The position numbers and the translations under genes are program-made. 20,000 bases of DNA from an uncultured virus (IMG/VR IMGVR_UViG_2541047086_000003) (taxonomy: Duplodnaviria > Heunggongvirae > Uroviricota > Caudoviricetes). The stretch lies in the IMG/VR virus record IMGVR_UViG_2541047086_000003, positions 108,464 to 128,463 of that record. One strand, written 5' to 3'. Shown piece by piece: positions 1,041 to 19,884 of this stretch; position 1 is the stretch's first letter; each line of letters starts with the position of its first letter. The notes under the pieces were generated by a model. It was given only the letters and a program-made list of their open reading frames with translations, did no database searches and was not told the origin of the DNA.

Positions 1041-4000
1041 TTGAGTCAAGATTTAAAGATCATACTCACACCCAAAGCTGATACTTCTTCAAAAACTGTC
1101 GAACAGTTAAATCAGCAAATTAAATCTTTAGAGAAAAAGCTAAATTCCCTTAATTTAAAGACCAATATTGATGCCTCTGCTTTAAAGACTCTCAACGATT
1201 TCTCCTCTGCAGTTGAAACTTATCAAAAACATCTCAAATCCTTCAATCAAACAGTTAAAGAAACCACAACGATTACCAGAAATGCTGATGGTACTGTTGA
1301 AAAGCTTACGCAGCAGTATAAGAAAAATGGCGAAATCATTCAGCGTGAAAAGAAATTCATCGACAATCGTAATCAATCACTACGTGAACAAACGCAAGAA
1401 GTTAACAGGCTTGCTCAAGCGACTGAAAAACTTGGTCAGGTACAGAAGAAAACAGAACAAAAGAATGCTCAAGGACAAACGACAAGGGTTACTCAAAAGA
1501 ACCGCAATGGCTTTGACGATATTACCTATACAACTGATCCAAAAACAAACGCTACTACATCTAAAGTAACAACGAATTATGATCAGCAACGAAAAGCAAT
1601 TGAACAATTAAAACTGGATTTAGAAAAACTTAGACAGCAAGGAATTGTAACTGACACCACCCTCTCTTCCCTTGGACGGAAATTAAATACTGCTCAAACA
1701 GCACAACAAATTGAAGCATTACAAAACAGAATCAAAATGCTCGATGATAAGTCTGCTGCTGTGGCGAAAAATAATGAGCTCAGAAAAACTATTGAGCTTT
1801 ATCAACGCCAAGCACAAGTAAACGTACAAAACCTTAATACGCGTTATGGCGATACGATGGGTGCTGGAAATAGACAAGCTATCCAAGAATATCTGAATGC
1901 AGTTAATAGTCTTAACTCAAGCGTCGGCGGAAGTAATGTCAGATCTCAAATTCAAAGCTTGAACATGCAATTCAGGGAATTGGCTTCAAATGCTCAAACA
2001 GCGTCTAGTCAAGCCTCCTCTTTTGGCACAGAGTTAACTCAAGCTTTCAAAAGTATGTCGACATATTTGATCTCCGGTTCTTTATTCTACGGTGCTATAT
2101 CTGGGCTTAAGGAAATGGTCTCCCAGGCTGTTGAAATTGATACTCTAATGACAAACATCAGACGTGTAATGAATGAGCCTGATTATAAGTACAATGAGCT
2201 ACTCGAGGAATCAATAAACCTAGGCGACACCCTTTCAAACAAGATCACTGACATACTCCAAATGACTGGCGATTTCGGGCGTATGGGTTTCGATGAAAGT
2301 GAACTGTCTACGCTTACTAAAACCGCTCAGGTTCTACAAAACGTCTCTGATTTAACTCCTGATGATACTGTTAACACCTTAACTGCCGCAATGTTAAACT
2401 TCAATATTGCTGCGAATGATTCTATTTCAATCGCAGATAAGCTTAATGAAGTCGATAACAACTATGCTGTAACCACTCTTGACCTGGCGAATTCTATTCG
2501 AAAAGCAGGAAGCACCGCCTCTACTTTTGGCGTTGAATTAAACGATCTAATTGGTTACACTACAGCAATTGCAAGTACCACCCGTGAAAGTGGAAATATA
2601 GTCGGTAAAGTGATTGCTGACTTTAAATCTCTTCTGATTGACTTGGAACTCCTAACGTTAAGACGAGGACGACAAGGGGCAAGCGTTATTGCAGCCTGAA
2701 CGACTGAGCGAAGAGACGCTAAATTGCGAAGCGACAGTCTGAACTTCTATGGAAACATAGAGAGTATGATTGAAGTATCATACCGCCACATATAGTGGTC
2801 AGTAGCCTTTAAGGTGAAAGTAACAGAATTGAACTCACTTAAAACCATTTTCGCACGTATCGGGAATAATGATAGCTCAATTAAAGCCTTAGAACAGATT
2901 GGCATTTCTGTGAAAACAGCTAGTGGTGAGGCGAAATCTGCTACTGAATTAATTAATGAGTTAGCAGACAAATGGAATAACCTCAGCGATGCTCAAAAAC
3001 AAAACACCTCGATAGGTGTAGCGGGCATTTATCAGCTTTCTAGATTTAATGCCTTAATGAACAACTTTTCCATATCACAAAACGCAGCGACTACTGCGGC
3101 TAATTCCGCAGGAAGCGCTTGGAGTGAACAGCAGAAATACGCTGACAGTTTACAGGCAAGATTAAATAGGTTGTCAAATGCATTTACAGAGATGTCAGTT
3201 GCCTCAAGTGAAGCTTTCATATCAGATAGTATTGTTGTTTTTGCAGATGCACTTAAAGGTTTAATGCAAATAAGTGCTCAAATCACTAAAACAGTCGGTC
3301 TCCTTCCTCAAGTTATAGGAGCTGCTACAGCTGCAGTTATGCTTTTTAACACTTCTTTACGTACAAGTGCACTTACCTCAGGAATGGCAATGGGCGCAGC
3401 CCTTAAAAATTTAGTACTCAACTTTAATGCTGTAACTGTTGGAGTAACTGCCGCCTCTGCCAAAACAGTTGTTTGGAATAGAGCTGTAACTGCATTTAAT
3501 GCATCCCTAGTTGGACTTAAAAGAGTGGCGATGACCACTGGAGCTTTCTTAGCAGGAAGTTTTCTTCCTATGGCAGCCATGGTTGGACTGGGCGTCGTTA
3601 TTGAGAAACTCATTTCCTCTTATTCTGATTTAAAACAAGCTAGAGAAGACTTTGAACAAGCTAAAACTACTAGCATTGAAGCAATTACAACCAATAAAGA
3701 TGAAACTGATAAACTGATTAGCCAATACAAAGAACTGCAAAAGGCTAAAGATGGCGGGGATTTATCAGCCAATCAGGAGCAAGAATACCTACAAGTAACG
3801 CAGCAATTGGCGCAAACGTTCCCGAATTTGATCGCCGGGTATGATTCTCAAGGGCAAGCAATCATAAAGAAAAACCAAGCACTAAAGGATGCTATAAAGT
3901 ACACTGAAGACCTTACTAATTTAAACAAAAAAGACATTCAAACAGGTGCTAATAGTAACTTTAAGGATAGCTTAAAAGACATTGATAAACTCAATGATAA

Positions 4001-7000
4001 GATTAAACAGTATAAGCAGGTTGCCGATTATTATAAAAACGGCAAGAGTTGGGATATTTTCTCTTCTGAAAATGACAAAAAAAATCAAGGTATTAAAGCT
4101 GAACAAGATGCACTACGTACTGAGCAAGAGCTATCCAGCTCACAGGCTAAAATTAGAGAGCAAGTGCAACAGACAATTGATGCCTTTAACTCAATAAAGA
4201 TAAATCCGAATCTTTCAAGGGAAATATCTAACGCATTCGATAAAATCGACTTCAGCAAAATGAATGCAGATGAACTTGAGTCATTTTCAATAAATGTTTC
4301 GAAATACATGGAAAATATTCAAAAAGCTCTGCAATCGGGCAATAAAAATAATTTTGATTCCGCCTCTAAAAGCTTAGAACAGCTTGTTAATCAATATATG
4401 AGTGGTAAAGATAAAGCTAATGGTTTGGCTTTATCTTATGATGACCTTAAAACTGCCATTGACTCTACAAATGATTCTGCACAAACTGCAAAAGTAACCT
4501 GGGATGAAAATGGTGAAGGTGTAGATGCATTAGGTGAGCAAGTCGGTAATTTATCTGACAAGCTCAAAGAAGCTAAAGGTGATTTTGAAGCAATTAAAGG
4601 AATCATCGATGATTTAGTTGAATCGAAGCAAAATGATGCTGCTATATCTGCCATTCAAAATGAAGCTTATGACACTATGTCTGACAGCATCTCCCCTTTA
4701 AATAACCTCCTTGAAAAAATGTCTGAAGGTAAAAGCATATCTGCAACAGAAGCCATGAAACTTATTCAGAAGGAACATGATCTTGCTGATGCAATTTCAG
4801 TTGAAAATGGTGTTGTAAAAATCAACAGAAATGCAGTTGTTAAGCTTCGGGATACAAAACTCAAAGCTTACAATGATATGCAACAATCTGTAAGACAAGA
4901 TTTAATTAATCAGGCTAACGCATTAAATAAAAAGATTAACATGTATAAGTCTGAAGTTAAGGCTATCAAGACTGTGCAAGATGCTTATAACATGAAATCA
5001 GAGCTGGAGAGTAACAAACAAAAGATCTATGATGAATTAAAAAAAGGAAACAGCGGATCGCTGCAATTCCTTCCAAAGAATCAAGAGGATCTGAAACAAG
5101 TTACCGATATCACCGATCAGCTTAAAGAGCTTGATAAACTAGCCGATTTGGCTTCAACTTCCCTATCTGAAACAGGAACATCTCTTGATGACCTGTCTTC
5201 TTCAAGTGATAAAGCCTCTGAGGAAATTAAAACATCTATGTATGTGGCTGACAAATACAAGGAAGCTCTGGAGAAAGTTAATGCCGAAGTCGAAAAGTAC
5301 AATAAGCAAGTAAACGACTATCCAAAGTATTCTCAAAGTTATCGGAATGCCCTGCAGAAAGAAATTAAAGCTCTTCAACAAAAGAAAAAGCTTATGCAGG
5401 AGCAAGCCAAACTCCTCAAGGATCAAATTAAGTCAGGGAACATTGCACAATACGGTATAGTTACCTCTTCCCTCTCCTCTGGTTCATCTTCTGGTAGTTC
5501 TTATTCTTCCGGTGGCGGGTCTTACTCCGGTAAATACTCCAGCTACATTAATTCTGCCGCAAGCAAATACGGTGTTGATCCAGCTCTAATTGCAGCTGTA
5601 ATCCAGCAAGAATCTGGATTCAATGCAAGAGTTCGTTCTGGAGCAGGCGCAGCCGGATTAATGCAGTTGATGCCTTCAACTGCTAAAAGCTTAGGTGTAA
5701 ACAATGTTTATGATCCGTATCAGAACATTATGGGTGGTACGAAATATCTAGCCCAACAACTAAGCAAATTTGGTGGCAATGTTGAGAAAGCACTTGCTGC
5801 TTATAACGCAGGGCCTGGTAATGTAATTAAATATGGTGGCATCCCTCCTTTCAAAGAAACGCAGAATTATGTTCAGAAGATCATGTCTAATTACACTAAG
5901 TCAATGACTTCTGCTAATTCATCCATTGCAAGCTACTACACGAAGAACAGCGCTTTTAGAATAAGTTCTAAGTATGGTGCACAAGATGGCTCTTACCGAT
6001 CAACTCCACATAAAGGTATCGACTTTGCAGCGAAAGCTGGAACCGCAATTAAATCGGTTCAGAGTGGAAAAGTTCAAATTGCTGGTTATAGTAAAACTGC
6101 CGGTAACTGGGTTGTCATTCAGCAGGATGATGGGAAAGTTGCTAAGTATATGCATATGCTTGATACCCCTTCTGTTAAAGCCGGTCAAACTGTTAAAGCT
6201 GGCCAGACCATCGGTAAAGTTGGCAGTACGGGTAATTCAACAGGAAATCACCTTCATCTTCAAATTGAGGAAAACGGAAAGACTATTGACCCTGAGAAGT
6301 ATTTAAAAGGTGTCGGTACATCTATTTCAGATGCATCTCAAGCTGAAGCAGAACGACAGCAAGCAATCGCACAAGCTAAATCCGACCTCCTCTCCCTCCA
6401 AGGCGACATTGACTCAGTAAACGATCAGATACAAGAACTCAGATATGAAATCGTTCAGTCGAAACTTGATGAATATGACAAGCGTATTGGTGATTTTGAT
6501 GTAAGAATCGCTAAAGACAAAGCCCTCGCTAGTCATTATCTGAGCGACAGTAAAGAATTCCGCAAGTATACAAACGATCAGAAAAAAGCTTTAACTGAAC
6601 AGCAAAAGATTCAGGGTCAGAAGGTTTCTTTTATTGAAAAAGAAATCAAAACAAACAAAACTTTAAATGGTGCTCAAAGAGCACAGCTTGCTGAGGAATT
6701 AAAACAGGCTAAGATTGATCTCATCAATTTTCAAGAAGAAGTAAGAGAACTTCGAGGACAGCTCATTCAGTCTGAGGTTGATCAAACACTTAACGGTATT
6801 GAGAAATCAACCAAGAAAACTGAATCCAAGCTTAAAGATGTTAGCAACAAAATATCCATGACCGAGGAAGATAAAGACAAGGTTAAATATTATAGCCAAC
6901 AGATTAAGCTTATTCAGCAGCAACAGAATGAAGCGAAAAAGTATATCAAACAGTTGGAAGCACAAAAGAAAGCTGCTAAAGGGTTCCCGGATATTCAGAA

Positions 7001-8138
7001 ACAAATTACTGAAGAGATCGAGAACTGGAAAGACAAGCAGAAGGATTACAATCTTGAGCTTTATAACACAAAGAAATCAATCAAAGATGTGTACAAATCT
7101 CTTGCTGATGAAGTTGTCTCCATCTATAAAGAGATGTACGAAAAGATGCGTGACATTGAATTAAAAGCGCACCAAAAAGCTACGCAAGACTTGATTGATG
7201 AGATTGATAAAACTGATGATGAAGCTAAATTTCAAAGACAGTTAAAAGAGAAGCAAGACAGTATCCAAAAACTCACTGACCAAATTAATCAGTATTCTCT
7301 TGATGACTCAGAGTTTGGTAAGTCAAAGGTTAAGGAATTGACTGAGCAGCTACAAAAGGAACAGTTAGATTTAGATGAGTTTCTTAAAGATCGTGAAAGT
7401 AGCAAACGAAAAGAAGCGTTGCAAGATCAGCTTCAAAAAGACGAAGATTCAATTAACAAGAAATATGATGATCTCGTCAATGATGAGCGTGGATTTAAGG
7501 AACTTGAGAAAAAGCTAATGGATGGGAAGATTACTGATATTGCTAAGCAACTGAATGAATTCTCTAAGTTCATTAACAGCAATATGGAGTCCATCGGGAA
7601 AAGCATCTCTAATAACCTTATCGATAAGCTTAAAGAAGCTTCTAATGCCCTTAATACTGTGACTAAAGGTAATACAACAGGCAAAAAAATATCCTCATTT
7701 GAAACAGGAGGATACACAGGAACAGGTTTAGGTTCTGGCAAGCTTGCTATTCTTCATGATAAAGAGCTTATTCTGAATAAGACTGACACCAAGAACATGC
7801 TTGAAACTGTAAAGCATGTTCGCAATCTGTCTGATAACGATTTGAATAATGAAACACCTAAATGGGGGCAAGGTGGAAAATTAGCAGCCTTGATTAACAA
7901 AGGAATCACCGCTATTCCATCAATAATTCCGAATATTAGCCAATCGAGCCTATCTAATAGTTTGATACCAAATGTTAAAACCACTAACCTCCCTCCTACA
8001 GTTAATTCTACTGGTGATAAAACAGTGAATCTAACAAACAATTTCAATATTGAAAAGCTCACAGGTGGTGAAACAGGAGCTAGGACAATGTTCGAAACCA
8101 TCAAGAAAGAAGTTATAAAATTAAATGGAAGCATGTAA
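1041..8138 (+). CDS. yomI: Tail tape measure protein / cell-wall hydrolase CwlP (YomI), spliced join(1041..2606,2832..8138), 2290 aa, with lytic transglycosylase (SLT, ~5535-5895) and M23 peptidase (~5965-6310) domains
   Basis: TTG start at 1041 after SD AAAGGATGTGA ([12 protein letters not shown]...). TP901-type tape-measure core; removing the intron gives ...[21 protein letters not shown].... SLT motifs [26 protein letters not shown]23 motifs [19 protein letters not shown]. Confidence 0.92.
2607..2831 (+). ncRNA. Group I self-splicing intron (225 nt, no homing endonuclease ORF) in the tape-measure gene
   Basis: 5' exon ends in U2606 and the intron ends in G2831. P1 GUCGGU(2601-06)/GCUGAC(2616-21) with a U.G pair at the splice site; P10 AAGUGA(2608-13)/UCACUU(2835-40); P3 UCUCUUC(2628-34)/GAAGAGA(2710-16); P4 CUUG(2642-45)/CAAG(2673-76); P5 UCCU/AGGA; P6 GGC/GCC; P7 GACUG(2702-06)/CAGUC(2735-39); P8 CGC/GCG; P9 CUAUG-GAAA-CAUAG(2747-60). 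In-frame stops at 2697 and 2793. Confidence 0.93.
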
Positions 8139-12268: not shown

Positions 12269-13084
12269 TTGGATTTTCCTCAGCTCTATAACGACCCCAC
12301 CCTTTCTCAAAAAAGGAAGGGCTCAATCGATGACCCTTATTTAAGCTACAGTGAAACTTTAACTGTTTACAATGGTCGAGTCTTACTTACAGAAGTACCT
12401 AACCGTGAGTACAGAGTCGAGGTTAGTGGTGACAGTAAAGAATGGCGAGAAATTGAAGATGGTGAATTAGAAGACAACTACTTTAAGGTTGATTACCTTA
12501 TGGGAGTTGTCTTTTTCAATGGTTCAAATGAAGGCAAATCACTTACTTTTACATATCAAGGAGAAGGTGCATCTTTCTTCCCTGCCTCAAGAATTTGGAT
12601 TAAACGGCAAGGAAATATGGTCATTGAAACACTTCAAGGCTTAATTGATGATGCTGAAGATGCCATTATTCGTATCAACGAACGTATTGCTGAATGTGAA
12701 CGTGTCACCAAGCGATGTGTTGAAATAACAAATTGGTGCAGACAAGCAACATCAGATTATGAGTATGTAGTTGAGAACACTAGGAAGATTTACTTGCCGT
12801 TTGTGTACACCTATCAGGATTTATTAAGCACTTATCCTTCCCCTCAAATTGGTTGGACTGTCACTGTAAAAGAAACAGGCATTGAATATCGATGGGATGG
12901 TTTTGACTGGATAAATATTAGCGTCTCAGATAAGTATGATGGTTTCAACATTGTTTCTAGCTATGTAGAGCCTTACAACATCAGGTCAGTATGGTTGAGA
13001 ACGAACAATGCTCCCAAAAAGATGAGGATAAAACCTTCTGTAGAACCCCCTGACGGAAGTATGGTTTGGATTAGAAAAGGATAA
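12269..13084 (+). CDS. yomF: YomF-like phage tail/baseplate protein
   Basis: 271 aa, TTG start after SD AAAGGACGGTG; syntenic with and similar in size to SPbeta yomF as recalled. Confidence 0.7.
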   Translation: MDFPQLYNDPTLSQKRKGSIDDPYLSYSETLTVYNGRVLLTEVPNREYRVEVSGDSKEWREIEDGELEDNYFKVDYLMGVVFFNGSNEGKSLTFTYQGEGASFFPASRIWIKRQGNMVIETLQGLIDDAEDAIIRINERIAECERVTKRCVEITNWCRQATSDYEYVVENTRKIYLPFVYTYQDLLSTYPSPQIGWTVTVKETGIEYRWDGFDWINISVSDKYDGFNIVSSYVEPYNIRSVWLRTNNAPKKMRIKPSVEPPDGSMVWIRKG

Positions 13085-13097
13085 GGAGGAGTATATA

Positions 13098-15680
13098 TTG
13101 AACGACAATTTAATTCCCGTAAACACAATGGGTTATATGGACGAAGAAACAGAGCAATGGATACCCATTGATGCTATCGGGTTAAAATCAAATAATATTA
13201 GATATACTGCAGACGATATTCAAGAGGCTTTTGATAAAGCTTCTAAGGATATTAAAAACGTAATAAGTACAGTCGATTCTGGCTTAACAGATATCACAAA
13301 CACTATTGGAGACATTTCAAAAATCCCTGCATCCGGTGCAACAATTGTTGATAAAGTCCTAAATGAATTTATCAGACGAAGTGTCAATGTTCAGGATTTT
13401 GGAGCTAAGGGTGATGGTGTTACTGATGACACTGAAGCTTTCAAAACTGCCTTTGCAAGTGGGAAACGAGAGGTTTTTGTTCCGGCAGGGATTTACATGG
13501 TTCAAGGATTGCACATCCCCTCTTATGTCAGACTTTATGGTGTTGGATCAGGGTCTGTTATCAAACTTCACCCAACTGCTACTGGAACATCTTGTGTATT
13601 AACCAATAGTGACTACACAAATGGAAACGAATTTATCTTAATTGAATACTTAGACCTCGACTGGAATTTAGATAAAAATGATAACACCATTACAAACGGA
13701 ACAAATGCGAACTGTGTGGGCATTGTTAACTCTAAATTTGTTCGGGTTAGAAACGTCAATGCTCGTAATCCAGGTGTACACGGTTTTGATGTAAGCTCCC
13801 CTGTTTGGAACTCTTCTTCTGATGGAGCAGATCATTATCAGCCAAATGGTAGCAAATATGTTTGGATTGAAAATTGTACTGCAACTAATTATGGTGACGA
13901 CGGCTTCACAACGCACTATTCTGATTACGTCTTCTTCACTAACTGTTACGCCTATGACGCTAATGGATCCGCACACAGCAAAGGAGCTTCAAATTCAAAC
14001 GGTTTTGAAATTGATGACGGCTCTAAAAACGTATGGCTTGTGAACTGTTACAGCCGAAAAAATTGCAGGGGTTTTGAAGTCAAAGCTCACAACAGAGCGC
14101 CTGCAGCAAGAAACGTAAATTTAATTAACTGCTATTCCGAAAATGATATCCGCGCATTTGATTTTAGGCATATTGGCTTTCACCTAGCCTCCGAAAAACC
14201 CTCTACAAGTGCATTTGACATTAATGTCGTTAACTGCACTGCCCAACATCCTATCTTCAGCGACCTTTATAAAGGGTTAAATCCCCGTGCACTTGTTATT
14301 TCCGCTTATAGAAATGTAAATGTATCAAACTTCAATGCAATTGGTGATCCGACGTATGATTATAAGAATACTATAGTAATCTCTACTCAATATAAGAGCA
14401 GAAATATCAACCTAAGCAACATCACTGTTTCAGGGTTTACAACAGCAAGTAACGATATCTATGTAATCGGTGGAGCCCAAAAATCAGACAATGTAAACAT
14501 CTCGAATGTAACCATTAACCAATCTGCACTAGTGGGTATTGCTGTTGGAAGTAAAGTTGGCTCAGTCAATATCAATAACGTTAACATGACGGGAACAAAC
14601 AAAGCAGGTTCAATAGGTGTTTATTGCACTAACTCACAAGCCAATATTAACGCTGCGATGTGCGAACAATACGCTACTCCCAGTAAAATTGCCGGGAAAA
14701 CCTACGCATTTATCCCGAATAATTTCAAAGGTGGTACACGGATTGCGACGACTTCCGGCTACGCTAAAACAAATACTAGCGTCGTAATGGCATCTTCAGG
14801 TGGCGGACAAGCAACTGGTGACGCTTCTGCCGTTATTGCAACAACTGGCGGTTCTAAAGCAGAAGGGCCACGTAATGCAGTTATTGCGTCCTCTGGAGGA
14901 TCTAAAACAACTGCAGAAGGAAGTCGTTCATTGGTTGTTGCATCAAATAATTCTTCCATTGAAGGATCAGGATCTTCTAGGGTTGTTATTGGATCACAAT
15001 CTGTAGCAAATAGAAAAGGTTATACCACTATATGGGGATATGGAACATCAGATGCCCCTTCCACCTCGAACATTAAGATAGAACATGATGCGATGAGAGG
15101 AAATATTGCCTTAACCGGTCAGGTTAAAGGTGCTTCCACATTTGCTGATTATGCGGAGTACTTCGAATCTGCAGATGGAAGAGCAATTCCTACCGGATAT
15201 ATGGTCACACTTGATGGGGACAAAATTAAAAAAGCGAATCTCGGTGACAAGGTATTAGGGGTTATATCTGAAACAGCTGGCATTGTGCTCGGAGAGTCTT
15301 TGTTTAATTGGCAAGGAAGATACCTCAAAAATGAATTCGGCGGTCTTATTTATGAAGATAGGGATGTGACATTTGTGGATTCGGAAGGTATGCAAAGAAC
15401 AGAAATAAGAAGGCTACCAAAAGAAAATCCCAACTTCAATGCCAATGAAGAATATGTTCCACGATCTGAGCGTCCTGAATGGAATATAGTCGGTATGTTT
15501 GGACAAATTTTCGTTCGCATTGATGAAACAGTTCAAGACGGCGACAGAATTGTACCCAAAGCCGGCAAAGGATCAAAATCCTCTGATGCTTCAGGTTATC
15601 CGGTAATGAAAATAACAACGCCTTACACAAAAGAAAGAGGATACGGTGTTGCTGTCTGCTTAATAACACCGACAGTTTAA
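13098..15680 (+). CDS. Tail spike / pre-neck appendage-like protein: pectin-lyase-like beta-helix plus peptidase G2 intramolecular chaperone (phi29 gp12-like; yomE position)
   Basis: SD AAGGAGGAG, TTG start; VNVQDFGAKGDGVTDDTEAF beta-helix start; GDDGFTTH and SNGFEIDDGS repeats; FADYAEYFES autocleavage motif (E687) and YVPRSERPEWNIVGMFGQI C-terminal motif. Confidence 0.85.
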   Translation: MNDNLIPVNTMGYMDEETEQWIPIDAIGLKSNNIRYTADDIQEAFDKASKDIKNVISTVDSGLTDITNTIGDISKIPASGATIVDKVLNEFIRRSVNVQDFGAKGDGVTDDTEAFKTAFASGKREVFVPAGIYMVQGLHIPSYVRLYGVGSGSVIKLHPTATGTSCVLTNSDYTNGNEFILIEYLDLDWNLDKNDNTITNGTNANCVGIVNSKFVRVRNVNARNPGVHGFDVSSPVWNSSSDGADHYQPNGSKYVWIENCTATNYGDDGFTTHYSDYVFFTNCYAYDANGSAHSKGASNSNGFEIDDGSKNVWLVNCYSRKNCRGFEVKAHNRAPAARNVNLINCYSENDIRAFDFRHIGFHLASEKPSTSAFDINVVNCTAQHPIFSDLYKGLNPRALVISAYRNVNVSNFNAIGDPTYDYKNTIVISTQYKSRNINLSNITVSGFTTASNDIYVIGGAQKSDNVNISNVTINQSALVGIAVGSKVGSVNINNVNMTGTNKAGSIGVYCTNSQANINAAMCEQYATPSKIAGKTYAFIPNNFKGGTRIATTSGYAKTNTSVVMASSGGGQATGDASAVIATTGGSKAEGPRNAVIASSGGSKTTAEGSRSLVVASNNSSIEGSGSSRVVIGSQSVANRKGYTTIWGYGTSDAPSTSNIKIEHDAMRGNIALTGQVKGASTFADYAEYFESADGRAIPTGYMVTLDGDKIKKANLGDKVLGVISETAGIVLGESLFNWQGRYLKNEFGGLIYEDRDVTFVDSEGMQRTEIRRLPKENPNFNANEEYVPRSERPEWNIVGMFGQIFVRIDETVQDGDRIVPKAGKGSKSSDASGYPVMKITTPYTKERGYGVAVCLITPTV

Positions 15681-18723: not shown

Positions 18724-19884
18724 TTGGAGAACGAAAAGGTCATTCCTTATGATTTAGTAGCAACAAAGATGAATCATTGGTATGTGGCTATTAAAAAGAA
18801 TTGGGTCGGTAGAGCAGAAGAAATGCGTAAAGAAGTTATGCAGGAAATAAAAATTATGGAAGAAAACCAAGATGTTTTACTATACTACTCCCTACTTGAG
18901 TTTAGACATAAGCTAATGTTGGCATATATGTATCCTAACGCTATAAAAGACATTGAGAAAAATTATGGTGAGTTAAAAGCATATGAAGGCCATGAAAACT
19001 TAACAGGAATGCTCGAATATTACTATTATTTTTTCATGGGCATGTTCTATTTTAGACAAAAGGAGTTGGCATTCTCCCTTAATCACTATAGACAAGCTGA
19101 GAGATATTTGGATTCAATTGAGAGCGAAGATATTGAAGTTGAAAAAGCTGAATTTTATTTTAAATTGTCAGAAGTGTATTACCACATGAAACAGACTTAT
19201 TTTTCAATGAATTATGCCATGAGGGCTTACGATATATTTAAAAAGCAACCTGCTATTGACGGGAGCCCTACATACGGGGTACAAAAGGTACGCTGTCAAT
19301 TCGTCATATTTGGTAATTTATTGGACAGTATGAAGTTTGATGAAGCTTTAAAGCAAGCATACAAAGCGTATCAGGAAGCAGTAGAGCTAAACAAAAGTGA
19401 AAAGAATCGTGGACATTTGATGCGTTCAGCACTGTTTAATATTGGATTATGTTATAATCAAATGGAAGAACTTGATAAAGCATTTTTTCACTTTAATAAG
19501 TCACTTCAAATCATTGAGCCGGAAAATCATGATTACGCTGCTAAAACATTATTTGTTATCTCCTTCTTAAAGGGAAGGCAAAATGACATTGAAAACGCAA
19601 AAAAATTTTATGAACAGGCCAAACAGTTGGCTGAACGGCATAACAATGAAATGGTACTTGAAAAGTTAAAAATGGTTAAAGGACTTTTCTTGGACTATGA
19701 TTTAGACTTAGTTAGGAAAACATTCGAGTTCTTCAAAGAAAGAAGTATATACCCTGACATGGAAAGCTATGGTGTCTCTGTAGCGGATTTTCTCACTGGA
19801 AAACAGGATGCTTGGGGTGCAGTTGAATTTTATCGTTTGGCAAATGAAGCAAGAAGACAAATCAAAAGGGGAGAAGCAATATGA
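18724..19884 (+). CDS. rap: Rap-family response regulator aspartate phosphatase (TPR, RRNPP)
   Basis: TTG start, SD GAAAGGGG; Rap motifs IPYDLVATKMNHWY, MEENQDVLLYYSLLEFRHKLM, LTGMLEYYYYFFMGM, EKAEFYFKLSEVYYHMKQT; TATAAT at 18691-18696 upstream. Confidence 0.93.
   Translation: MENEKVIPYDLVATKMNHWYVAIKKNWVGRAEEMRKEVMQEIKIMEENQDVLLYYSLLEFRHKLMLAYMYPNAIKDIEKNYGELKAYEGHENLTGMLEYYYYFFMGMFYFRQKELAFSLNHYRQAERYLDSIESEDIEVEKAEFYFKLSEVYYHMKQTYFSMNYAMRAYDIFKKQPAIDGSPTYGVQKVRCQFVIFGNLLDSMKFDEALKQAYKAYQEAVELNKSEKNRGHLMRSALFNIGLCYNQMEELDKAFFHFNKSLQIIEPENHDYAAKTLFVISFLKGRQNDIENAKKFYEQAKQLAERHNNEMVLEKLKMVKGLFLDYDLDLVRKTFEFFKERSIYPDMESYGVSVADFLTGKQDAWGAVEFYRLANEARRQIKRGEAI

What the first reader, a model, noticed from the sequence alone, without database searches (positions are those of the whole stretch)
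2607..2831. Compact ORF-less group I intron interrupting the tape-measure/CwlP virion gene
Seen in sequence: the two in-frame halves of yomI are separated by 225 nt containing stops (TGA 2697, TAG 2793). Excising 2607-2831 restores [21 protein letters not shown] and a 2290-aa protein. The insert has the group I hallmarks: exon U paired to G in P1 (GUCGGU/GCUGAC), P10 guide pairing to the 3' exon (AAGUGA/UCACUU), terminal omega-G, the P3/P7 pseudoknot with a bulged C next to the G-C guanosine-binding pair, P4-P6, P8, a GAAA-capped P9, and further hairpins (GUAUGAU/AUCAUAC 2764-83; CCAC/GUGG 2786-98). Established: phage group I introns mostly sit in DNA-metabolism genes, and SPbeta's known ones are in the ribonucleotide reductase genes. 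I recall reports of tape-measure introns in B. cereus-group prophages, so the class may not be new, but SPbeta yomI itself is recalled as uninterrupted. Inference: tail assembly depends on ribozyme splicing, and pipelines would mis-annotate this as a split gene or pseudogene.
Basis: partly seen in the sequence, partly recalled or inferred. Interest (0 to 1): 0.92.

Follow-up and report, generated by a model that had tools for sequence, protein, structure and literature searches.

The report
Spliced group I intron in tape-measure gene
A 225-base self-folding RNA intron interrupts the tail tape-measure gene of an SPbeta-like Bacillus prophage and is cut out precisely in RNA, a known kind of element that belongs to a large compact family which the standard database model fails to detect.

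Summary
Window 2607-2831 is a 225-nt insertion that is missing from all 25 SPbeta-like phage records found. It splits one Pfam tail domain between two ORFs in the same frame.

The insert has the full group I layout: P1 with a U·G pair at the 5' splice site, P10, the P3/P7 pseudoknot with bulged C2701, P4-P6, P8, a GAAA-capped P9, three more 3' hairpins and a terminal G.

- **Covariation, family level:** in 60 dereplicated family members, 95.7% of pair cells are paired, against 39-50% in slid controls. 23 of 34 pairs show compensatory change.
- **Covariation, orthologues:** three orthologous copies at the same tape-measure site (this window, Bacillus pumilus, Terribacillus) give 13 compensatory pairs.
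- **Independent model:** a covariance model built without the window scores the insert at 113.6 bits.
- **RNA evidence:** contigs from RNA runs of two studies join 2606 directly to 2832.
- **Rfam:** RF00028 gives no hit, but it also misses the relatives.

Group I introns in prophage tape-measure genes have been known since 2008 (PMC2504315). This is therefore a new member of a known kind. It is moderately interesting because of the Rfam blind spot and the size of the family.

The parts
1041..2606 (+). Exon 1 of the tape-measure/lytic transglycosylase gene (yomI-like). Probable TTG start at 1041.
   Evidence: ORF list and start region. Pfam PF10145 PhageMin_Tail profile positions 4-131 match the last 128 residues.
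2607..2831 (+). ORF-less group I intron, 225 nt.
   Evidence: Absent from 25 of 25 SPbeta-like phage records. Scores 113.6 bits against the family model R1 over 2624-2745. RNA contigs join 2606 to 2832.
2832..8138 (+). Exon 2 of the same gene, carrying the SLT transglycosylase and M23 peptidase domains.
   Evidence: PF10145 profile positions 136-195 match residues 1-59. PF01464 and PF01551 lie further on.
2600..2622 (+). P1: exon 2600-2606 (AGUCGGU) pairs with guide 2616-2622 (GCUGACU). U2606·G2616 is the wobble pair at the 5' splice site.
   Evidence: Read from the sequence. 7 of 7 pairs are kept in 3 orthologues, 2 of them by compensatory change.
2607..2615 (+). P1 loop, the guide for P10. 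2608-2613 (AAGUGA) pairs with 3' exon 2835-2840 (UCACUU).
   Evidence: Read from the sequence. The B. pumilus and Terribacillus copies carry different guide letters that still pair with their own 3' exons, in slightly shifted registers (read by eye).
2628..2634 (+). P3, 5' strand (UCUCUUC). Pairs with 2710-2716.
   Evidence: 98.1% of cells are paired and 6 of 7 pairs show compensatory change in 60 sequences. RNAalifold predicted it independently.
2642..2697 (+). P4-P6 domain: P4 2642-45/2673-76; P5 2650-53/2666-69 with extension 2656-58/2663-65; P6 2677-80/2694-97 with extension 2683-85/2690-92.
   Evidence: P4 100% paired (3 of 4 pairs invariant); P6/P6a 100% paired with 5 compensatory pairs; P5 83% paired with 6 of 6 pairs changed on both sides. 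One search agrees.
2700..2706 (+). P7, 5' strand. A2700 pairs with U2740, C2701 is bulged, and G2702-G2706 pair with C2735-C2739. G2702-C2739 is the presumed guanosine-binding pair.
   Evidence: 100% paired in 60 sequences. The A2700-U2740 position reads AU 45, GC 13, UA 2. The G2706-C2735 position reads AU 43, GC 17.
2710..2716 (+). P3, 3' strand (GAAGAGA). Only 3 nt (2707-2709) separate it from P7, so there is no P7.1 or P7.2.
2717..2728 (+). P8 hairpin (CGC/GCG, loop UAAAUU).
   Evidence: 99.4% of cells are paired and 3 of 3 pairs are compensatory. 2 of 3 pairs are compensatory among the 3 orthologues.
2735..2740 (+). P7, 3' strand (CAGUCU).
2745..2762 (+). P9 hairpin, 7 bp, with a GAAA tetraloop at 2752-2755.
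2764..2815 (+). Three further 3' hairpins: 2764-70/2777-83, 2785-89/2795-99 and 2805-07/2813-15.
   Evidence: 12 of 16 family 3' domains, the window among them, fold on their own into the same four hairpins. Among the 3 orthologues, helix 2764-83 has 4 compensatory pairs and helix 2785-99 has 1.
2831..2831 (+). Terminal (omega) G, at the end of the conserved tail GUAACAGAAUUG.

Best explanation
Window 2607-2831 is a functional, ORF-less group I intron inside the tape-measure/lytic-transglycosylase gene of an SPbeta-like prophage. The gene is transcribed as one pre-mRNA and the intron folds into the group I core. P1 presents U2606·G2616. A free guanosine bound at the G2702-C2739 pair of P7, next to bulged C2701, attacks the 5' splice site. 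P10 then aligns the 3' exon, and the terminal G2831 takes the binding site for exon ligation. The result is an mRNA for a continuous 2290-aa protein.

Shown here: the insertion, the fold with its covariation, and the precisely joined RNA form. Inferred: the chemistry (autocatalysis with exogenous G) and the consequence that tail assembly needs splicing. The intron has no endonuclease gene. How it arrived at the same site in three Bacillaceae prophages is not known; it could be inheritance with the gene module or homing helped in trans.
For: 1. **Precise insertion.** It is absent from 25 of 25 SPbeta-like phage records.
2. **One domain split in two.** Pfam PF10145 is split at profile positions 131/136 between the two ORFs.
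3. **Core helices in 60 family members.** 95.7% of 1880 cells are paired against 38.8-50.1% in slid controls. 23 of 34 pairs and 363 cells show compensatory change, and 0 of 500 shuffles reach this. RNAalifold finds P3, P4, P5, P6 and P8 unaided on 59 relatives.
4. **Independent model.** Model R1, built without the window, scores the insert at 113.6 bits, rough E 3.9e-27. It also hits, at 22.4 bits, an intron of the same prophage that RF00028 certifies at 90.5 bits.
5. **Orthologues at the same codon.** Copies in B. pumilus (89.9% identity) and Terribacillus (80.0%) sit at the same site. 98.4% of 189 cells are paired and 13 of 63 pairs are compensatory, including 2 in P1.
6. **Frame restored by excision.** Excision at U|...G| restores RESGNI[VI]G|NSLKTI in all three. 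The B. pumilus copy is 224 nt, so read-through cannot keep its frame.
7. **RNA evidence.** In RNA run X1 (study P1), a 58-nt contig of depth 18 joins 2606 to 2832. The intron-bearing contig has depth 8 and the exon contigs 58.9 and 56.2. The same joint appears in X5 (study P2) at depth 3 against 7.97.
Against: - Rfam RF00028 gives no hit at the gathering score or at E up to 10 on 2500-2950.
- 2 of the 4 RNA runs laid (X2, X3) show only the intron-bearing contig.
- The runs are Logan contigs. They cannot exclude DNA in the library, and the table of the joined form in DNA runs was not given.
- The joint's depth of 18 is well below the exon depth of about 57, and I cannot explain the gap.
- The automatic ORF-restoration test on the family discriminates only modestly: 29 of 43 pass, against 11-15 of 43 for splice sites shifted by 1-2 nt.
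- There was no test of autocatalysis.
- P10 forms in different registers in the three orthologues, so its support is weaker than for the other helices.
Confidence: 0.93

Rival explanations
1. The intron fold is real, but this copy no longer splices efficiently. The joined contigs would come from an intronless allele (DNA or RNA) present in the same samples, for example a second prophage or a subpopulation with a precise deletion. In the window's genome yomI would then be a pseudogene of a defective prophage.
For: The runs are contigs that may hold DNA. The table of the joined form in DNA runs was not given. X2 and X3 show only the intron-bearing form. X5 is a metatranscriptome in which strains can mix.
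Against: In X1, a transcriptome of one organism, the exon contigs (2772 and 15659 nt, no other letters) fork only at the intron borders. A second allele would therefore have to be identical except for the 225 nt. Intron depth is 8 against exon depth of about 57, the pattern expected of spliced RNA. Compensatory changes between three species show that the fold is under selection. The provirus is rated 100% complete.
Confidence: 0.04
2. The gene is truly split. Two separate proteins (ORF 879/1041-2699 and ORF 2814-8138) are made and assemble without splicing, and the insert is an intergenic structured spacer.
For: Both ORFs are listed as open, and a GTG lies at 2814. Annotators have filed such halves as separate CDSs in a relative, MW202674, where the coat protein is in two CDSs.
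Against: One Pfam domain is cut at profile positions 131/136. By eye, no Shine-Dalgarno sequence lies at a usable distance before GTG 2814, which sits inside the conserved intron tail. All 25 related phages have one continuous gene. The joined RNA form exists.
Confidence: 0.02
3. The insert is another kind of small mobile insertion (a MITE-like element, or a translational bypass or recoding signal) that resembles a group I fold only by chance.
For: No RF00028 hit. The minimum free energy z-score of the region is only -2.35.
Against: The pseudoknotted P3/P7 core covaries in 60 sequences. The U·G pair and terminal G are kept. The family model also touches an RF00028-certified intron. The 224-nt B. 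pumilus copy changes frame, so read-through or bypass within one frame fails there.
Confidence: 0.01

Closest known systems
Group I introns TMP-IVS1, -IVS2 and -IVS3 in tape-measure genes of B. cereus-group prophages (Tourasse and Kolsto 2008, PMC2504315; section 8 and passages read)
   Same: These are group I introns in the tape-measure gene of temperate Bacillus phages. Several lack a complete endonuclease gene, are carried passively with the prophage, and have P1/P10 adapted to the site.
   Different: They occur in other phage lineages. The paper describes them as IA1 or typical IA2, whereas the intron here has no P2 and no P7.1/P7.2. I did not compare their sequences or insertion sites with the window.
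Introns of SPbeta bnrdE and bnrdF (Lazarevic 1998, seen only as cited in PMC8270828, passages)
   Same: Same phage group. This provirus has RF00028 matches at G000:C1:15640-15893(-) at 90.5 bits, 14943-15235(-) at 68.4 bits and 12367-12645(-) at 31.7 bits.
   Different: RF00028 recognises those. The yomI intron is not recognised. My family model gives the best of them only 22.4 bits, against 113.6 bits for the yomI intron. I did not check which genes those matches lie in.
Compact family of inserts in uncultured phage genomes (IMG/VR loci L006-L129) and in MW202674, where the insert lies between two CDSs both annotated as P22 coat protein
   Same: Same core, including the 15-mer CUGAUUGACUUGGAA (J3/4 plus the P4 5' strand), and the same helices and 3' tail GUAACAG..G. 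The host genes identified are phage genes: P22 coat, capsid, P22 portal and class II ribonucleotide reductase.
   Different: Different host genes and hosts. Many relatives have a long P9 loop in place of the GAAA tetraloop. Some carry long insertions in P6 or after P8.
Insert that splits the large terminase gene of Staphylococcus phage Twort (NC_007021, locus L001)
   Same: 82.5% identity over intron positions 9-64, window 2615-2670, which spans the P1 3' strand to P5, including the P5 motif CCUAACGU.AAGACGAGG.
   Different: Twort has about 90 nt between the P7 5' strand and the P7 3' strand where the window has 28 (by eye). Model R1 does not match it at E up to 1. I found no call or paper showing that this particular Twort insert splices.
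ORF-less 265-nt intron in a minor tail gene of mycobacteriophage BAKA (Pope 2013, PMC3706429; passages read)
   Same: A small intron without an endonuclease gene in a tail gene of a temperate siphovirus. It has U before the 5' site and G at the 3' end, and splicing was shown by RT-PCR.
   Different: The host is a high-GC actinobacterium. No sequence relation was tested.

Membership tests
Group I intron | P1 helix between the 5' exon end and an internal guide, with a U·G wobble at the splice site | tested here: met
   AGUCGGU/GCUGACU with U2606·G2616. U·G is present in 3 of 3 orthologues, and 2 P1 pairs changed compensatorily.
Group I intron | [quoted passage not shown] | tested here: met
   G2831. 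The 3' tail GUAACAG..G is conserved in the family. The RNA joint lies at 2606/2832.
Group I intron | Conserved core: the P3/P7 pseudoknot enclosing P4-P6, with P8 between P3' and P7' | tested here: met
   95.7% of cells paired and 23 of 34 pairs compensatory, against 38.8-50.1% paired in slid controls. RNAalifold recovers P3, P4, P5, P6 and P8.
Group I intron | Guanosine-binding site: a G-C pair in P7 next to a bulged nucleotide | tested here: inconclusive
   G2702-C2739 is invariant in 60 of 60 sequences, one nucleotide (C2701) is bulged, and the flanking pair covaries as AU 45, GC 13, UA 2. Binding itself was not tested. That this pair is the binding site is inferred by analogy recalled from the literature.
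Group I intron | P10 pairing of the guide with the 3' exon | tested here: met
   AAGUGA/UCACUU, 6 bp. Pairing also forms in both orthologues despite different letters, but in shifted registers (by eye). This is the weakest of the helices.
Group I intron | Match to the Rfam model Intron_gpI (RF00028) | tested here: not met
   No hit at the gathering score or at E up to 10. As a control, the model also gives nothing at E up to 1 in the Twort, MW202674 and Desulfovibrio-phage relatives, while it finds 2 other introns in this provirus above its cut-off. Papers state that RF00028 does not cover all subtypes (PMC6125680 and PMC11878797, passages).
Group I intron | Precise excision with exon ligation in RNA | tested here: met
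   A joint 2606->2832 is present in contigs of 2 of 4 RNA runs, from 2 studies. Caveat: these are contigs, and there was no DNA control.
Group I intron | Self-splicing in vitro, started by exogenous guanosine | not testable with these tools
   Needs a bench assay.
Subgroup IA1/IA2 (the usual phage group I introns) | Extra helices P7.1/P7.1a or P7.1/P7.2 between P7 and P3' (definition recalled from Michel and Westhof 1990, not from a call) | tested here: not met
   Only 3 nt (2707-2709) lie between the P7 5' strand and the P3 3' strand.
Subgroup IA1/IA2 (the usual phage group I introns) | P2 helix between P1 and P3 (recalled) | tested here: not met
   Only 5 nt (2623-2627) lie between P1 and P3.
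Any of the 14 GISSD subtypes | Significant score against a subtype-specific covariance model | not testable with these tools
   The GISSD models are not on hand, so the subgroup remains unassigned.

The most novel reading that the evidence does not exclude
The intron belongs to a large, structurally minimal class of group I introns. The class has no P2 and no P7.1/P7.2, an invariant CUGAUUGACUUGGAA block, and four 3' hairpins. It is invisible to RF00028, and so probably also to the 2025 intron database that was seeded with RF00028 (PMC11835236, passages). It has colonised phage capsid, portal, tail and ribonucleotide reductase genes across many bacterial phyla, and it appears in bins labelled archaeal. 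If it fits none of the 14 described subtypes, it would be a new subgroup and a systematic source of falsely 'split' phage structural genes.
Probability: 0.25. Interest if true: 0.6.

Novelty: new member of a known kind. Interest (0 to 1): 0.4.

Why it matters
- **Annotation.** Gene callers split an essential 2290-aa virion gene into two ORFs or a pseudogene. The same thing has happened in public records of relatives: the coat protein in MW202674 and the terminase in Twort.
- **Detection.** The standard Rfam model misses this intron and its relatives. A further 41 loci turned up in species-representative genomes. Intron censuses seeded with RF00028 therefore probably undercount phage introns in structural genes.
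- **Model system.** SPbeta-like phages are easy to work with genetically in B. subtilis. An ORF-less intron in a late structural gene, with intronless sister phages such as phi3T at 92% identity, gives a clean system. It could test whether such introns cost or regulate late gene expression, and how endonuclease-free introns spread.

Tried and rejected
- **Rfam.** No group I hit on the window at the gathering score or at E up to 10 on 2500-2950. The only matches were chance-level ones to a snoRNA and a lncRNA family. Nothing was found in L001, L003 or L004.
- **MAFFT, window against phi3T.** The gap was misplaced, so I read the junction by eye.
- **First P1 finder.** For the window it picked a spurious longer helix with a 41-nt loop. 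I restricted the loop length.
- **MAFFT alignment of the 3' domain (A3).** It put the window's shorter P9 out of register, so I did not count pairs on it. I folded each sequence on its own instead.
- **Flank identity profile.** Against phi3T, the 30 nt next to the intron are the least alike (23/30 and 25/30, against 25-30 elsewhere). Against B. pumilus, the upstream 30 nt are the most alike (27/30, against 18-25). This hints at co-conversion or at selection for P1/P10, but the numbers are too small to claim either.
- **L9 tetraloop against P5 extension.** 10 of 23 copies with an extended P5 have a GNRA L9, against 8 of 80 with a short P5. The sequences are related and the parser is crude, so this is not used as evidence.
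- **Model R1 on the Twort locus.** No match at E up to 1.
- **Earlier notes of this scan.** None exist for this genome.
- **Twort orf142.** I had thought the Twort relative might be the well-studied orf142 intron set. PMC11878797 (passage) says orf142 is a tail tube gene, so I dropped that link.
- **Archaeal rRNA introns (PMC6125680).** These are IA3/IB4 in rRNA, and I made no link to them.
- **Runs X2 and X3.** They show no joined contig. Contigs show presence, not absence.
Full report
**The observation**

The window is the last 20 kb of a 128,463-base provirus record rated 100% complete. ORF 879-2699 and ORF 2814-8138 share a frame. Between the residues ...RESGNIVG and NSLKTIFA... lie 225 nt with in-frame stops at 2697 and 2793.

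A BLAST of 2300-3150 against 50,697 phage records found 25 Bacillus SPbeta-like records. Every one aligns in two pieces that cover 74% of the query and span 624-626 bases in the record, so each lacks the 225 nt. Seven of them, phi3T and its close relatives, are 91.9% identical in the flanks. Read by eye against phi3T, the insertion sits between GGT and AAC. The boundary can slide by up to 2 nt, and only 2607-2831 gives a U before the 5' site and a G at the 3' end.

Pfam shows that one domain, PF10145 (phage minor tail protein), is cut by the insert. Profile positions 4-131 end exon 1 and positions 136-195 begin exon 2. The neighbouring genes are tail, tail-fibre, amidase and holin genes, and no homing endonuclease gene lies in the window.

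**What it is**

Rfam gives nothing, either at the gathering score or at E up to 10 on 2500-2950. BLAST of the insert alone, however, finds relatives:
- a 91%-coverage match between two CDSs, both annotated as P22 coat protein, in an uncultured phage, MW202674;
- matches in a Desulfovibrio phage;
- a match in the insert that splits the large terminase of phage Twort;
- short, high-identity core matches in AR9/PBS1, Enterococcus, Aeromonas and Vibrio phages.

RF00028 also misses the Twort, MW202674 and Desulfovibrio relatives. It does find two introns above its cut-off elsewhere in this same provirus. The Rfam miss therefore reflects a gap in the model and is not evidence against an intron. Papers say the same about RF00028 in general (PMC6125680 and PMC11878797, passages read).

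**The family**

Of the 128 hits outside the window's own record:
- 14 have no other family anchor and are chance matches;
- 84 carry both P7 anchors, and 79 of these are compact;
- 30 are partial, cut off, or carry long insertions.

I dereplicated the 79 compact copies to 59, dropping any that shared more than 60% of its 8-mers with a copy already kept. I aligned these with the window as A2.

On my hand-drawn structure, 95.7% of 1880 pair cells form standard pairs, against 38.8-50.1% when the 3' partners are slid by 1-3 columns. 23 of 34 pairs and 363 cells show changes on both sides, and 0 of 500 shuffles reach the observed pairing or covariation score. Helix by helix:

| Helix | Cells paired | Pairs with compensatory change |
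|---|---|---|
| P3 | 98% | 6 of 7 |
| P6/P6a | 100% | 5 |
| P8 | 99% | 3 of 3 |
| P7 | 100% | 2 |

In P7, the pair flanking the bulge reads AU 45, GC 13, UA 2, and the distal pair reads AU 43, GC 17. P4 is nearly invariant, so it says nothing either way. P5 is paired in 83% of cells.

The sequences were chosen by a shared 15-mer and are related, so the shuffle control overstates significance. The slid control and the number of distinct pair types are the fairer measures, and they agree.

RNAalifold on the 59 relatives alone returned the same P3, P4, P5, P6 and P8. It cannot draw the P7 pseudoknot. The covariance model built from that alignment, which never saw the window, matches 2624-2745 end to end at 113.6 bits, rough E 3.9e-27. 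That is the only match in the window at E up to 10. Across the whole provirus it also gives 22.4 bits to the place that RF00028 scores at 90.5 bits. This ties the family to canonical group I introns.

**Anatomy in the window**

| Element | Coordinates | Note |
|---|---|---|
| P1 | 2600-06 / 2616-22 | U2606·G2616 at the 5' splice site |
| P10 | 2608-13 / 2835-40 | guide lies in the 9-nt P1 loop |
| J1/3 | 2623-27 | 5 nt, so no P2 |
| P3 | 2628-34 / 2710-16 | |
| P4 | 2642-45 / 2673-76 | |
| P5 | 2650-53 / 2666-69 | extension 2656-58 / 2663-65 |
| P6 | 2677-80 / 2694-97 | extension 2683-85 / 2690-92 |
| P7 | A2700-U2740; 2702-06 / 2735-39 | C2701 bulged |
| J7/3 | 2707-09 | 3 nt, so no P7.1 or P7.2 |
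| P8 | 2717-19 / 2726-28 | |
| P9 | 2745-51 / 2756-62 | GAAA loop |
| 3' hairpins | 2764-83, 2785-99, 2805-15 | |
| Tail | ends at G2831 | GUAACAGAAUUG |

12 of 16 family 3' domains, the window among them, fold on their own into the same four hairpins. By the recalled definitions it does not fit subgroups IA1 or IA2. I could not score it against subtype models, so the subgroup is open.

**Orthologues at the same site**

A gapped family pattern found 41 loci in species-representative genomes and MAGs of many phyla. Two are the same intron at the same codon of a tape-measure gene: Bacillus pumilus 36R_ATNSAL (89.9% identity over 218 nt) and Terribacillus aidingensis (80.0% over 220 nt).

On the three-way alignment, 98.4% of 189 cells pair. 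13 of 63 pairs changed on both sides: 2 in P1, 3 in P3, 1 in P5, 2 in P8, 4 in helix 2764-83 and 1 in helix 2785-99. Three cells are unpaired. Slid controls give 33-50%.

Excision at the predicted sites restores RESGNI[VI]G|NSLKTI in all three. The intron lengths are 225, 224 and 231 nt, so in B. pumilus only excision can keep the frame. The P1 loops differ, and by eye each still pairs with its own 3' exon.

**RNA evidence**

Twenty public runs from 13 studies hold at least part of 2450-2990, and ten of them are on record as RNA. I laid four RNA runs on 2300-3150.

| Run | Study | Joined contig 2606→2832 | Intron-bearing contig | Exon contigs |
|---|---|---|---|---|
| X1 (transcriptome of one organism) | P1 | 58 nt, depth 18 | 2579-2861, depth 8 | depth 58.9 (ends at 2608) and 56.2 (starts at 2832) |
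| X5 (metatranscriptome) | P2 | depth 3 | depth 7.97 | not summarised |
| X2 | P1 | none | present | not summarised |
| X3 | P2 | none | present | not summarised |

In X1 the joint is reported as 'skips 225, ends AA..TG', with 2 nt fitting either side.

These are assembled contigs, not reads. They prove that the joined form exists in RNA libraries of two studies. In X1 the graph forks only at the intron borders and the intron is about 7-fold less deep than the exons, which is what splicing predicts. I cannot explain why the joint's depth of 18 is so far below the exon depth.

**Mechanism**

Shown: the insertion, the conserved and covarying group I fold, the conserved U·G pair and terminal G, and the precisely joined RNA.

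Inferred from established knowledge of group I introns:
- guanosine binds at G2702-C2739;
- splicing proceeds by two transesterifications;
- L9 GAAA may dock on P5.

Inferred from the split domain and from the continuous gene in 25 sister phages: virion tail formation needs the spliced mRNA.

Mobility is unknown. The intron has no ORF. The flanks give only a faint hint of co-conversion.

**Comparison with what is known**

Group I introns at three sites in tape-measure genes of B. cereus-group prophages, several without a complete endonuclease gene, were described in 2008. That paper also lists one in the tape-measure gene of Lactobacillus phage JCL1032 (PMC2504315, section 8 and a table passage read). 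Spliced ORF-less introns in tail genes are known in mycobacteriophages (PMC3706429, passages). The kind is therefore known.

For SPbeta and its relatives, a review mentions only the bnrdE and bnrdF introns (PMC8270828, passages). My searches for yomI with 'group I intron', and for SPbeta, phi3T, 'tape measure' and intron, returned no paper whose listing showed an intron in yomI. None of the 25 sequenced SPbeta-like phages has it. These searches cover open-access papers and bioRxiv only.

**Verdict**

This is a real, spliced group I intron: a new member of a known kind, of moderate interest. The extra value lies in the Rfam blind spot and in the size and breadth of the compact family.

Noticed in passing
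outside the window: G000:C1:15640-15893(-), 14943-15235(-), 12367-12645(-); weaker at 87234-87471(+) and 29065-29282(-): RF00028 matches elsewhere in the same provirus, at 90.5, 68.4, 31.7, 18 and 15.8 bits. The first three are probably the ribonucleotide reductase introns known from SPbeta. I did not check the host genes. The two weak ones are unexamined.
   Followed up: partly
L018, L065, L070 (two copies 218-441 nt apart); pairs L007/L008, L022/L023, L024/L025, L040/L041, L049/L050 on single contigs: Many uncultured phage contigs carry two family members within 0.2-1.1 kb, which suggests single genes with several of these compact introns and very short internal exons.
   Followed up: no
L011, L016, L024, L025, L031, L035, L095, L100, L105, L116, L120, L121, L124: Family members whose core is interrupted after the P6 5' strand or after P3'/P8 by long stretches that look coding. 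These are probably homing-endonuclease-bearing relatives of the ORF-less form (by eye).
   Followed up: no
L144, L150, L153, L157, L165, L167: Family pattern hits lie on contigs binned as archaea: Bathyarchaeia, Nitrososphaeraceae, Nitrosopumilaceae, Methanobacterium and 'uncultured archaeon'. They may be viral contigs or mis-binned. L150 holds several BLAST pieces and L153 two.
   Followed up: no
window 2563-2570 with 2612-2619: The internal guide can also pair over 8 bp (CAGCAAUU/GAUUGCUG, ending in U2570·G2612) with exon sequence 36 nt upstream of the real 5' splice site, a possible cryptic site. No RNA joint from 2570 was seen in the four runs.
   Followed up: partly
window 2649-2670; L001 1523-1544; L040, L096, L111, L137, L149, L169: The P5 motif CCUAACGU.AAGACGAGG, a helix with an AA bulge, is shared almost letter for letter by the window, its two orthologues, a few uncultured phage copies and the Twort terminase insert. 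Most family members have a plain short P5 instead.
   Followed up: partly
window 18724-19884 (+): An ORF with a RapH_N domain and TPR repeats, a Rap-phosphatase-like gene, lies just past the holin and amidase genes at the end of the provirus.
   Followed up: no
L001 (Twort NC_007021 128207-129887) and L003 (MW202674 16569-18084): Public annotations file the halves of intron-split genes as separate CDSs: terminase large subunit ORF151 of 79 aa in Twort, and two 'P22 coat protein' CDSs plus a 39-aa 'hypothetical protein' inside the intron in MW202674.
   Followed up: partly
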